Below, one piece after another: positions 1 through 12,075 of a stretch of DNA of 13,276 bases (positions within the stretch are counted from its first letter, which is position 1; the number at the start of each line of letters is the position of its first letter). Source of the stretch: Octopus sinensis (lineage: Eukaryota). Location: assembly GCF_006345805.1 (NCBI RefSeq), contig NW_021826300.1:1-13276 (forward strand). Reading direction: 5' to 3'. Under the pieces are notes generated by a model. It was not told the DNA's origin. It saw only the letters and a list, made by a program, of their open reading frames with translations, and did not search any database. The position numbers and the translations under genes were made by a program.

Positions 1-63
1 GTGGCAGACGAAATACGCTAAACATTTTGCCCGGCGTGCTAACGTTTCTGCCAGCTCACCGCC
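1..63 (-). mobile_element. 5' head of SINE family A, cut by window edge
   Basis: Reverse complement (ggcggtgagctggcagaaacgttagcacgccgggcaaaatg...) matches the heads at 1893 and 10326. Confidence 0.85.
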
Positions 64-369: not shown

Positions 370-391
370 TCATATATATATATATATATAT

Positions 392-493
392 TTAATCAAT
401 ATAGGGTGGCAAAAAATTTTGTAGAATTTTTTTGCCACCAGCGGCCTAGTGGGAAAAAATTAAATAGTCATAGACCATTTATAAGTTCAACAT
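392..493 (-). repeat. 102-bp inverted segment of the 499-bp unit
   Basis: Reverse complement matches 663-764 and 1162-1263 (1 mismatch to copy 2, 3 to copy 1). Confidence 0.95.
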
Positions 494-510
494 TGGTTTA
501 CCATTAAACA

Positions 511-539
511 ATAGATGAAACGGTGCACCGTATAAGAAA
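511..539 (+). ncRNA. 3' half of hammerhead motif (CUGANGA half absent at the inversion junction)
   Basis: ATAGAT-GAAA-CGGTGCACCG-TA-TAAGAAA, identical to the complete copies. Confidence 0.7.
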
Positions 540-924
540 TTACAGGGTAAATGTTTTTTTTAATTTTCTCCTGGTTTGCGGAATTAATGTTATTTTGCGG
601 TTGAAGCTTTGGCTGTTATTTCTAGTGGGTGAATGGCCTATTATGGCCGTTCCTTGATTGTGATGTTGAACTCATAAATGGTATATGACTATTTAATTTT
701 TTCCCACTAGGCCGCTGGTGGAAAAAAAATTCTACAAAATTTTTTGCCACCCTATATTGATTAATTATGAATTTTCTGGTTAATTCCGTAATGGAATCGG
801 CGGCTTATATTTATTTGCTGCCGATAAATTTGGCGCGAGTGCGATGATTTGAAAATTTTAGGTCAGATATTGCCGAGGCAGGGAGAGAAGTGCCTCGTGA
901 AAATATCTGTTCCGATCTGGCTGT

Positions 925-1038
925 TTTCTTACTGACGAATCTATCGGCCTATGGAAGATTGGCTTGATTTAATTTAATCAATTTAATCAGGTTGGTTTAC
1001 CATTAAACAATAGATGAAACGGTGCACCGTATAAGAAA
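925..1038 (+). ncRNA. Type I hammerhead ribozyme, copy 1
   Basis: Stem I TTTCTTA 925-931 / TAAGAAA 1032-1038; core CTGACGA 932-938; stem II ATCTAT 939-944 / ATAGAT 1010-1015; GAAA 1016-1019; stem III palindrome ACGGTGCACCGT 1019-1030; GUA triplet, predicted cleavage after 1031. Confidence 0.88.
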
Positions 1039-1423
1039 TTACAGGGTAAATGTTTTTTTTAATTTTCTCCTGGTTTGCGGGATTAATGTTATTTTGCGGT
1101 TGAAGCTTTGGCTGTTATTTCTAGTGGGTGAATGGCCTATTATGGCCGTTCCTTGATTGTGATGTTGAACTTATAAATGGTCTATGACTATTTAATTTTT
1201 TCCCACTAGGCCGCTGGTGGCAAAAAAATTCTACAAAATTTTTTGCCACCCTATATTTATTAATTATGAATTTTCTGGTTAATTCCGTAATGGAATCGGC
1301 GGCTTATATTTATTTGCTGCCGATAAATTTGGCGCGAGTGCGATGATTTGAAAATTTTAGGTCAGATATTGCCGAGGCAGGGAGAGAAGTGCCTTGTGAA
1401 AATATCTGTTCCGATCTGGCTGT

Positions 1424-1537
1424 TTTCTTACTGACGAATCTATCGGCCTATGGAAGATTGGCTTGATTTAATTTAATCAATTTAATCAGGTTGGTTTACC
1501 ATTAAACAATAGATGAAACGGTGCACCGTATAAGAAA
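1424..1537 (+). ncRNA. Type I hammerhead ribozyme, copy 2
   Basis: Same as copy 1 shifted by 499: CTGACGA 1431-1437, GAAA 1515-1518, predicted cleavage after 1530, TAAGAAA 1531-1537. Confidence 0.88.
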
Positions 1538-1657
1538 TTACAGGGTAAATGTTTTTTTTAATTTTCTCCTGGTTTGCGGAATTAATGTTATTTTGCGGTT
1601 GAAGCTTTGGCTGTTATTTCTAGTGGGTGAATGGCCTATTATGGCCGTTCCTTGATT

Positions 1658-1660
<3 letters not shown>

Positions 1661-1693
<33 letters not shown>

Positions 1694-2681: not shown

Positions 2682-2752
2682 GGGGACGTAGCTCAGTGGT
2701 AGAGCGTTCGCTTTGCATGAGAAAGGCTCCGGATTCGATCCCGGCTTCTCCA
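2682..2752 (+). tRNA. tRNA-Ala(TGC), probably a pseudogene or degenerate copy
   Basis: Cloverleaf GGGGACG-TA-GCTC-AGTGGTA-GAGC-G-TTCGC-TTTGCAT-GAGAA-AGGCT-CCGGA-TTCGATC-CCGG-CTTCTCC-A. Anticodon TGC 2714-2716, G3.U70 Ala determinant. Mismatches in acceptor and anticodon stems; T arm one base short with G53>A. Confidence 0.85.
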
Positions 2753-3007: not shown

Positions 3008-3560
3008 CCAGCGGAGGTAGGATTTGAACTGTTATCCTCATTAAGAGGAAAGAAATATTATAGGTTTCCCGGTTTTGGGGATAATCAATTTATTACTGCG
3101 TGAAAAATTAAATTTTAGCCGTTGTAGGCTCTATTGTGGCACCCGTCCCTAGCGTCGGTGAGATTTGAACTGTTGTTCTCGTTGTGAGGAAAAAAATATT
3201 ATAGGTTTCCCGTTTTGGGGAATTCTATATTTTTATTACTGTGTGAAAAATTTAATTTCGAACATTGTAGGCTTTATCGTTACGTCTCGCCCCCCCCCCC
3301 CCATGGGGGTGAGATTTGAACTGTTGTCCTCGTTGTGAGAAAAAAAAATTATAGGTTTCCCATTTTTGGGGATTCTGTATTTTTATTATTGTGTGGAAAA
3401 AATAAAATTAATTTCGAACGTTGTAGGCATTGTTGTTACGTCTCGCCCCCCAGCGGGGGTGGGATTTGAACTGTTGTCCTCGTTAAGAGAAAAAAAAAAG
3501 TAAAAAATTATAGGTTTCCCATTTTCTGGGATTAAATTGTGTATAAATTATTTCGAACGA
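3008..3560 (+). repeat. Imperfect tandem repeat, unit about 141-151 bp, about 3.7 copies
   Basis: gatttgaactgtt at 3021, 3162, 3313 and 3463; each unit also has ttataggtttccc and the first three have ttgtaggc. Confidence 0.9.
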
Positions 3561-3889: not shown

Positions 3890-3942
3890 ACACACACACA
3901 CAACGGGTTCTTAATTTACGCGTCCCACATCCACTCACAAGG
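3890..3942 (-). mobile_element. Inverted internal fragment of SINE B
   Basis: Reverse complement ccttgtgagtggatgtgggacgcgtaaattaagaacccgttg resembles 4045-4090. Confidence 0.6.
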
Positions 3943-4360
3943 TGTGGTAAGTAGCTTGCTTACCAACCACATGGTTCCGGGTTCAGTCCCACTGCGTGGC
4001 ACCTTGGGCAAGTGTCTTCTACTACAGCCTCAGGCCGTCCAAAGCCTTGTGAGTAGATTTGGTAGACGTAAACTGAAAGAAGCCCGTCGTATGTATATAT
4101 ATATATGTGTGTGTGTGTGTGTATGTGTGTGTGTGTGTGTACATGTATGTGTGTGTTTGTGTGTCTGTGTTTGTTCCCACCAACATCGCTTGACAACCGA
4201 TGCTGGTGTCTTTATGTCCCCGTAACTTCGCGGTTCGGCAAAAAGGACTGATAGAATAAGTACTGGGCTTACAAAGAATAAGTCCTGGGGTCGATTTGCT
4301 CGACTAATGGCAGTGCTCCAGCATGGCCGCAGTTAAATGACTGAAACAAGTAAAAGAGTA
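3942..4360 (+). mobile_element. tRNA-derived SINE family B body (CORE-like central motif, internal microsatellite)
   Basis: B-box gggttcagtccc, central accttgggcaagtg, internal (TA)/(TG)n, tail gactgaaacaagtaaaagag; homologous to 11680-12075. Confidence 0.85.
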
Positions 4361-9870: not shown

Positions 9871-10325
9871 GTAGATACGTTTATATCAACAGTAAAATTA
9901 AGTATTCTTTATATGCGTTCAGTTTATGTCGTTAGATGCCCTCTACATTCTAGATAGGTGTATGTTGGGGGGTTGTGTTTGTGTATCTGCATGTGTGTGA
10001 GTGTGTGTGTGTATGTGTGTGTGTGTGTTTTAAATAAACAAACGCATCAGAATTTGCTCAATACATATGCTGGTTCATATTTATTTCTCGGGATTTGATT
10101 GTTCCTTTCGTACCTAATCAGATTTTCCCAGCGCGCACGATCCTTCCGAACAGATTAATACGTACATTGATACGAATGGGAGACATTAATACGTATAGGA
10201 GAACATCCTTGCCGATTGAGGGAATATAGGCATGCATCGACATATTTTCGGTTTCATTGGTCGGTTTGGGGTTATGATATAATAGTCGAAAACGTAGCAC
10301 CAGTAATCTCTTGAGATGTGGGCTA

Positions 10326-10550
10326 GGCGGCGAGCTGGCAGAAACGTTAGCACGCCGGGCGAAATGCGTAGCCGTATTTCGTCTGCCATTATGTTCTGAG
10401 TTCAAATTCGGCCGAGGTCGACTTTGCCTTTCATCCTTTCGGGGTCGATAAATTAAGTACCAGTTACGCACTGGGGTCGATGTAATCGACTTAATCCCTT
10501 TGTCTGTCTTTGTTTGTCCTCTCTGTGTTTAGCCCCTTGTGGGTAGTAAA
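10326..10550 (+). mobile_element. SINE family A, full length, fused at its 3' end to a SINE B body
   Basis: Aligns with 1893-2119 along its length. Confidence 0.85.
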
Positions 10551-10838: not shown

Positions 10839-10850
10839 TATGTGTGTGTG

Positions 10851-10884
<34 letters not shown>

Positions 10885-11130
10885 TGTATGTATGCGTGTG
10901 TATATGTTTGTGCGTCTGTGTCTGTACCCCGAATATCACTTGTCAGCCGATGCTGGTGTGTTTACGTCCCCGTAACTTAGCGGTTAGGCAAAAAGAGACC
11001 GATAGAATAAGTACTAGGCTTACAAAGAATAAATCCCTGGGTTCTATTTTTTCTCGACTAAATTCGGTGCTGCAACATGGCCACTGTCACATGACTGAAA
11101 CAAGTAAAAGAGTCAAAAGAGTCAAAAGAG
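10547..11130 (+). mobile_element. Headless SINE family B with a unique insert in its microsatellite
   Basis: taaactgaaagaggcccgtcgtat matches 4069-4092; 3' half 10920-11130 matches 4170-4360; tail (AAAAGAGTC)n. Confidence 0.75.
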
Positions 11131-11679: not shown

Positions 11680-12075
11680 GGCGCAGGAGTGGCTGTGTGG
11701 TAAGTAGCTTGTTTACCAACCACATGGTTCCGGGTTCAGGCCCACTGCGTGGCATCTTGGGCAAGTGTCTTCTGCTATAGCCTCGGGCCGACCAAAGCCT
11801 TGTGAGTGGATTTGGTAGACGGAAACTGAAAGAAGCCTGTCGTATATATGTATATATATGTATGTGTGTGTATATGTTTGTGTGTCTGTGTTTGTCCCCC
11901 TAGCATTGCTTGACAACCGGTGCTGGTGTGTTTACGTCCCTGTCACTTAGTGGCTCGGCAAAAGAGACCGATAGAATAAGTACTGGGCTTACAAAGAATA
12001 AGTCCCGGGGTCGATTTGCTCGACTGAAACAAATGACTGAAATAAGTAAAAGAGTAAAGAGTAAAGAGTAAGAGT
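11680..12075 (+). mobile_element. SINE family B, near full length with a small 3' internal deletion
   Basis: Head ggcgcaggagtggctgtgtggtaag (A box), gggttcaggccc (B box); lacks the ggcagtgctccagcatggccgcag segment near 12025; tail (AAAGAGT)n. Confidence 0.88.

What the first reader, a model, noticed from the sequence alone, without database searches (positions are those of the whole stretch)
493..1662. Tandem 499-bp hammerhead ribozyme array: candidate retrozyme / Penelope-dependent circular RNA element
Seen: each unit carries all type I hammerhead core nucleotides (CUGACGA, GAAA, GUA) with perfect stems I, II and III. Predicted cuts after 1031 and 1530 would release an exact 499-nt monomer (1032-1530). 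There is no coding capacity, and copies 1 and 2 differ at only six sites (582/1081, 673/1172, 683/1182, 722/1221, 759/1258, 896/1395), none in the ribozyme. Established: tandem type I hammerheads mark metazoan non-LTR retrozymes and the pseudo-LTRs of Penelope-like elements, and monomers can circularise. Inference: a young non-autonomous element copied from a multimeric or circular RNA template; this unit may be an undescribed family.
Basis: partly seen in the sequence, partly recalled or inferred. Interest (0 to 1): 0.92.

Follow-up and report, generated by a model that had tools for sequence, protein, structure and literature searches.

The report
Hammerhead retrozyme with Penelope insertion signature
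A non-coding repeat of about 490 bases with a conserved hammerhead-ribozyme fold sits at hundreds of places in this animal genome, mostly as two back-to-back arms that end at two different fixed sites inside TA repeats, so it is likely a 'retrozyme' copied by Penelope-type jumping-gene enzymes, probably from a circular RNA.

Summary
Confirmed: 2.3 copies of a 499-nt unit, six differences, two complete type I hammerheads with predicted cuts after 1031 and 1530. The family is large (512 exact ends of one type; usual unit 485-490 nt). Its hammerhead keeps four compensated base pairs across subfamilies. Insertions carry the Penelope signature: two divergent, 5'-truncated arms whose outer ends lie at two fixed sites, about 132 (A) and 236 (B) nt past the cut. 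Of 81 two-armed insertions, 78 have one A and one B end, none A/A. Sister arms share haplotypes. A coding Neptune-type Penelope element in this genome has the same two-end rule, but no sequence match to the unit. Verdict: a new member of the known non-LTR retrozymes, with unusually clear evidence of Penelope-type insertion. Cleavage, expression and circles are untested. The scan had no look-alike sequence but noted similar ribozyme-free elements in other genomes.

The parts
372..390 (.). left (TA)n target tract (overlaps the arm's last 3 bases)
   Evidence: sequence
388..493 (-). inverted arm: unit positions 131-236 (numbered from the hammerhead cut), outer end at site B (236) facing the TA tract
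   Evidence: self-BLAST 388-493 vs 1267-1162, 98%
493..1662 (+). long arm: starts at unit position 460, runs 2.3 units, outer end at site A (132)
493..539 (+). 5'-truncated partial unit holding only the 3' half of a hammerhead (no CUGA core)
925..1038 (+). type I hammerhead 1: stem I 925-931/1032-1038, core 932-938, stem II 939-944/1010-1015 with long extension, GAAA 1016-1019, stem III 1019-1022/1027-1030, predicted cut after 1031
1032..1530 (+). one whole monomer between two predicted cuts (499 nt, 36% GC, non-coding); circular fold z about -5.9
1121..1250 (+). predicted multibranch domain (1121-1209) around site A and a 12-bp hairpin (1216-1250) before site B; candidate binding region for the reverse transcriptase
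   Evidence: z = -5.60, 0 of 200 shuffles; role inferred
1164..1267 (+). 104-nt 'tail' between site A (1163) and site B (1267); also at 665-768
   Evidence: end positions in the family
1424..1537 (+). type I hammerhead 2, identical to the first; predicted cut after 1530
1661..1690 (.). right (TA)n target tract

Best explanation
This is a dispersed, non-coding hammerhead repeat (a non-LTR retrozyme) that is likely copied into (TA)n tracts by the enzyme of a Penelope-like element, probably from a circular RNA. Shown: the family, the conserved ribozyme fold, the two-armed layout, the two fixed ends, the one-A/one-B rule, shared haplotypes of sister arms. Inferred steps: (1) tandem loci are transcribed; (2) hammerheads cut out monomers of about 490 nt, which a host ligase closes; (3) a Neptune-type RT/GIY-YIG protein, plausibly a dimer, binds the structured region around unit positions 90-240 and nicks both strands of a (TA)n tract; (4) one DNA end primes at site A, the other at site B, on the same RNA or on RNA from the same source; (5) each cDNA runs back through the template, across the ligated cut and round again, stopping at near-random places (one stop per about 775 nt in this sample); (6) the two cDNA ends join with little or no overlap, leaving an inverted, tandem insertion made in one step.
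For: Two-armed insertions with both outer ends visible: 62 A/B, 1 B/B, 1 A/off-site of 64 in samples 1-2; 16 A/B and 1 off-site of 17 in an older subfamily (counted by eye); no A/A. 142 of 143 typed ends abut (TA)n. No outer end lies at the hammerhead cut. About 247 passes over the cut, 9 of 148 inner ends stop there (2.5 expected, p about 0.001): mostly read-through, with a small excess that fits some cleaved templates. The cut junction is clean in 219 of 221 copies matched. Sister arms are closer than the median foreign arm in 45 of 45 insertions; 17 of 66 variants seen in exactly two arms are in sister arms, 0.4 expected. Arms of 4-8 whole units occur in several different haplotypes, each with its marks in all or nearly all units, which needs a single-unit bottleneck and re-multiplication. 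Hammerhead: 98.2% of cells paired, 4 pairs with changes on both sides, slid controls 28-45%; position 7 varies C/A/T. A coding RT + GIY-YIG element ends in (TA)n at two sites 38 nt apart, with 9 divergent A-B pairs and no divergent A-A or B-B pair in the first 100 listed of each (by eye). In vitro a Penelope-like protein nicks and extends both strands and starts at two internal sites that bound the tail (PMC11167929).
Against: No sequence link to a coding element: best BLAST E = 0.05 over 50 GIY-YIG loci, out of 5029 candidates. PMC11167929 found that uncleaved RNA was the main template in vitro, hammerhead mutants still inserted, and start sites did not differ between strands (a Poseidon element). 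Some long arms are mosaics (L046, L054 near period 2; L043, L045, L051), which a single monomer circle does not give without later duplication or conversion. Core columns carry no variant shared by 3 or more elements (0 of 11) against 73 of 394 elsewhere, which alone is not significant (about p = 0.1). The number of compensated pairs was reached by 84 of 500 shuffles, and cells count related sequences repeatedly. Only 1 of 9 predicted Xenopus retrozymes cleaved in the preprint. The tail (104 nt) is longer than the 30-40 bp reported.
Confidence: 0.66

Rival explanations
1. Same Penelope-type insertion, but the template is an uncleaved linear multimer read through a parent array; arrays regain length by local duplication, and the hammerhead serves another step.
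For: Uncleaved RNA was the main substrate in vitro (PMC11167929); mosaic arms L046, L054, L043, L045; the preprint favours local amplification; over 96% of passes cross the cut.
Against: Linear copying can only shorten arrays, yet long uniform arrays recur in many haplotypes with the marks in both inverted arms. The window's 9-nt duplication is in both whole units and in no other locus examined, and the next best genomic copy is 97% alike. The ribozyme stems are kept by compensation.
Confidence: 0.23
2. The template is a cleaved linear monomer, and the enzyme builds tandem copies by jumping from the 5' end of one monomer to the 3' end of the same or another.
For: Small excess of inner ends at the cut (9 vs 2.5); mosaic arms could come from jumps between monomers.
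Against: Junction at the cut is exact in 219 of 221 matched copies, although template jumps usually leave added or lost bases (own knowledge; the pattern would miss copies with deletions); units of most arms share one haplotype.
Confidence: 0.07
3. The unit is just the broken-off tail of a coding Penelope element, a locally grown satellite, or an assembly artefact.
For: Earlier notes of this scan found that explanation for other hammerhead repeats. The assembly shows homopolymer-length noise.
Against: The unit closes on itself (499 to 1) up to 8 times; no fetched family locus showed it running into a long unrelated stretch at a defined breakpoint (flanks; flanks were not translated); loci lie on many large scaffolds with their own flanks; independent public runs show the A end followed by TA and contigs across the cut.
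Confidence: 0.04

Closest known systems
Metazoan non-LTR retrozymes (Cervera and de la Pena 2020, PMC7229834; review PMC7761336)
   Same: Tandem non-coding units with a canonical type I hammerhead in each, low GC, dispersed loci, strongly self-paired monomer; Penelope-like elements proposed as mobilisers.
   Different: Unit of 485-499 nt is above their 150-450 bp. Their main text has no occurrence of 'inverted', 'microsatell' or 'octopus'; the review says the repeats show no motif that points to the helper element. Here the insertion ends do. Cleavage and circles were shown there, not here.
Retrozymes as non-autonomous Penelope derivatives (Li, Clavereau, Pollet 2026, bioRxiv 10.64898/2026.07.22.740005)
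   Same: Meets their definition of an active retrozyme (two consecutive units with complete hammerheads); size within their 51-972 bp; coding Penelope-like elements in the same genome.
   Different: They argue from co-occurrence and pLTR homology and propose local growth of the tandem; no mention of 'tail' or molluscs. Here no pLTR homology was found, but tandem arms appear to be inserted ready-made.
Endonuclease-bearing Penelope-like elements, Neptune/Nematis type (Craig et al. 2021, PMC8557442; Frangieh et al. 2024, PMC11167929)
   Same: [quoted passage not shown]
   Different: No coding frame; canonical rather than minimal hammerhead; tail of 104 nt, not 30-40; the one-A/one-B split is almost absolute here, while no strand difference in start site was seen in vitro.

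Membership tests
non-LTR retrozyme | canonical type I hammerhead in each tandem unit, at least two in a row | tested here: met
non-LTR retrozyme | short low-GC non-coding unit | tested here: met
   36% GC, longest frame 60 codons; 485-499 nt, above the 150-450 of PMC7229834, within 51-972 of the preprint
non-LTR retrozyme | dispersed multi-locus family, dimers to multimers | tested here: met
non-LTR retrozyme | self-cleavage of the RNA | not testable with these tools
   only indirect: compensation, small excess of inner ends at the cut
non-LTR retrozyme | accumulates as circular RNA | not testable with these tools
   needs RNase R/northern or stranded raw reads
non-LTR retrozyme | target duplication longer than 4 bp when present | tested here: inconclusive
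   both ends lie in (TA)n, so a duplication cannot be read
Penelope-type insertion (non-autonomous) | 5'-truncated partial tandem with an adjacent inverted copy | tested here: met
Penelope-type insertion (non-autonomous) | two internal 3' ends bounding a tail | tested here: met
   A at 124-147 (39 of 73 at 132), B at 231-240 (43 of 70 at 236); tail longer than reported
Penelope-type insertion (non-autonomous) | microsatellite/AT-rich target | tested here: met
   142 of 143 typed ends abut (TA)n, (sample 2 was picked by one such end)
Penelope-type insertion (non-autonomous) | sequence shared with the pLTR of a coding partner | tested here: inconclusive
   none in 50 GIY-YIG loci; 5029 candidates exist, 150 scored
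autonomous Penelope-like element or its truncated tail | RT and GIY-YIG frame in or joined to the unit | tested here: not met
   unit closes on itself

The most novel reading that the evidence does not exclude
One Penelope enzyme complex holds a single circular ribozyme RNA and primes the two strands of a cut (TA)n tract from two dedicated sites on it, each subunit rolling round the circle. The genome would then record target-primed rolling-circle copying of a circular RNA, and the 'tail at one end' of Penelope elements would be an obligate division of labour between two start sites rather than an optional extension.
Probability: 0.4. Interest if true: 0.78.

Novelty: new member of a known kind. 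Interest (0 to 1): 0.52.

Why it matters
The class is known, but two questions are open in the papers read: which enzyme moves animal retrozymes, and how Penelope elements make their tandem/inverted insertions. This family answers the first with insertion-site evidence rather than co-occurrence, and gives the second a sharp rule (78 of 81 two-armed insertions with one end of each type, both arms of one haplotype) that differs from the in vitro result. A short non-coding template and intact candidate enzymes in the same genome make it directly testable.

Tried and rejected
Rfam scan: no hammerhead hit. No RNA holder listed: none of the runs is on record as RNA, so nothing is concluded on expression; the four runs laid are contigs. 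Search for a coding partner: 50 GIY-YIG loci gave no match better than E = 0.05; weak hits in L088/L099 belong to another small inverted element; a search with a diverged copy returned only more family members; the tail motifs were not found in coding loci. A first pair count used a stem II shifted by one column and is void (corrected). over-counts the reverse strand, so only the forward 566 is used. Fold-back copying of one cDNA was rejected: it would give two like ends, and the window's short arm (131-236) is not contained in the end of the long arm. Twin priming with one arm stopping where the other starts was rejected: inner ends are spread over the whole unit, although 12 of 63 pairs of inner ends lie within 15 nt of each other (3.9 expected), unexplained. 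Apparent pile-up of inner ends at position 1-10 was partly a BLAST edge effect and was re-measured; position 350-355 shows a similar excess. Literature: 8 full-text searches listed no paper describing this family or the one-A/one-B count; Repbase and Dfam could not be searched, and the supplements of PMC7229834 and of the preprint could not be read and may list it. Scan notes: nothing by sequence or in this genome.

Full report
Observation. The motif is well beyond chance (1 of 3000 shuffles loose, 0 of 3000 strict; fold z = -3.11). Stem I is predicted to extend past a small bulge, as in canonical type I motifs, and stem III is a palindrome that could also pair between two copies. Rfam missed it. 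The element is therefore 388-1662: two arms joined at their 5' ends, with 3' ends pointing out into TA tracts.

Host. The genome has 2.72 Gb with about 30 large scaffolds; I take it for an octopus from recalled features, which no call tested.

Family. The unit has 922 candidate places, of which 40 were scored and gave 230 matches. An exact end-plus-TA pattern occurs 512 times for end A and 566 times on the forward strand for end B, so roughly a thousand loci is a fair estimate. I examined three samples: the 40 best loci; 40 loci on scaffold C1 picked by one end only, namely 20 consecutive A ends and the first 20 B ends lacking an exact A partner (L154 and L155 dropped as copies of L153); and 30 loci of an older subfamily (6 dropped as repeats of the same locus). 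Identity to the window unit runs from about 84 to 97%. Spacing between cuts is mostly 485-490 nt; 499 is due to a 9-nt duplication private to this locus. Public runs from 8 studies and 4 organism labels hold part of the unit; in the 4 laid, contigs show end A followed by TA (X1, X3, X15) and cross the cut (X1, X8), so neither is an assembly artefact.

Ribozyme under selection. In 32 copies chosen as representatives of the 65 loci with a motif match (29 distinct), 98.2% of cells pair, four pairs change on both sides (two in stem I, two in stem II), and slid controls give 28-45%. The free position 7 is C, A or T, while the 11 core columns differ from the commonest letter in 7 of 2518 letters against 2084 of 90671 elsewhere; that contrast is inflated by inherited variants, and counted by column (0 of 11 vs 73 of 394) it is not significant. 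Cleavage itself is untested.

Insertion geometry. Outer ends fall at two sites: A (124-147, mostly 132) and B (231-240, mostly 236); 142 of 143 abut (TA)n. In samples 1-2, 81 elements comprised 62 A/B, 1 B/B, 1 A with an off-site end, 3 cut by the fetched edge and 14 scored as one-armed; some one-armed ones have a tiny opposite arm of about 10 nt. Sample 3 added 16 A/B and 1 off-site among 17 two-armed. Free choice of ends would give half A/B. Either end can be on the longer arm (A longer in 34 of 62). Inner ends scatter over the unit, one stop per about 775 nt in this length-biased set, with 9 of 148 at the cut against 2.5 expected. The arms meet with small overlaps or insertions. Sister arms come from one haplotype: 0.89% apart against 1.06% within an arm and 2.24% between loci in sample 1; closer than the median foreign arm in 45 of 45 testable insertions, with 17 of 66 two-arm variants in sister arms against 0.4 expected. 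Against a pure single-circle story, several long arms are mosaics.

Candidate enzyme. GIY-YIG domains are abundant. One young family has a 479-aa frame overlapping a 781-aa RT + GIY-YIG frame with a C-x4-C-x2-C motif before the nuclease, the mark that PMC8557442 gives for Neptune and Nematis. It ends in (TA)n at two sites, 67 and 105 nt past a hammerhead-like motif; exact patterns give 438 and 134 ends. Among the 23 B ends in the range covered by both lists, 9 have a divergent A end within 7 kb; no divergent A-A or B-B pair occurs in the first 100 listed of each (read by eye, loci not fetched). The geometry is shared, the sequence is not, so the actual partner is not identified. A sister non-coding family (538-nt unit, L106/L107) aligns at about 61% over unit positions 48-261 with both ends at matching places, which points to this region as the conserved recognition site.

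Mechanism. Shown: layout, end rule, haplotype sharing, conserved fold. From the literature: Penelope-type proteins nick and extend both strands, start at two internal sites bounding the tail and are predicted dimers (PMC11167929); retrozyme monomers circularise (PMC7229834). Inferred: a Neptune-type complex primes the two target strands at A and B. That it is Penelope-type insertion I put at about 0.93; that the template is mainly a circle, about 0.66, because linear copying cannot lengthen arrays while long uniform arrays recur in many haplotypes and in both inverted arms. The main rival is an uncleaved linear multimer (0.23).

What was read. PMC11167929: parts 1-2 of 4 (main text, part of methods). 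Preprint 10.64898/2026.07.22.740005: parts 1-3 of 5 plus a term search. PMC7229834, PMC8557442, PMC7761336, PMC10886601: passages around search terms only. No supplements. The family may already be in Repbase or Dfam.

Verdict. A new member of a known kind. Its value lies in the insertion record, which ties a retrozyme to Penelope machinery and turns the known 'tail at one end' into a near-absolute, testable rule. Interest 0.52.

Noticed in passing
L106:6760-7880 and L107 (G000:C6 near 12.735 and 12.762 Mb): A sister hammerhead family with a 538-nt unit, about 61% alike over unit positions 48-261, also two-armed in (TA)n with one end of each type and a tail of about 130 nt.
   Followed up: partly
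L104:1136-5958, L108, L109: Young two-frame Neptune-type Penelope family (479 aa + 781 aa), 438 + 134 exact ends; its hammerhead-like motif has the core TTGATAA (U3-A8 type); RNAfold did not give the hammerhead fold.
   Followed up: partly
L033, L038, L073, L102, L107:1351, L126; L088 and L099: At least five further hammerhead-like motif families, some tandem or inverted, in unrelated loci; small inverted elements with a CCGATGA core in L088/L099.
   Followed up: no
L046, L054, also L043, L045, L051: Long arms with two or three interleaved unit variants, close to period 2 in L046 and L054: dimer template, later duplication or polishing error.
   Followed up: partly
family-wide, unit positions 350-355; pairs of inner ends: Inner ends pile up at 350-355 (7 vs 1.7 expected) and 12 of 63 arm pairs stop within 15 nt of the same unit position.
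   Followed up: no
window 2682-2752: tRNA match (Rfam RF00005, 48.9 bits, TGC in the anticodon position) with several broken pairs, probably a pseudogene.
   Followed up: no
window 3008-3499: 150-bp tandem, 3.3 copies, 77% matches.
   Followed up: no
window 2-63, 1892-2117, 10325-10550; 3942-4359, 10842-11113, 11695-12028: Two dispersed SINE-like repeats in several copies within the window.
   Followed up: no
L153-L155 (G000:C1 81.885, 82.128, 82.151 Mb): One insertion with identical flanks at three places: segmental duplication or assembly redundancy.
   Followed up: no
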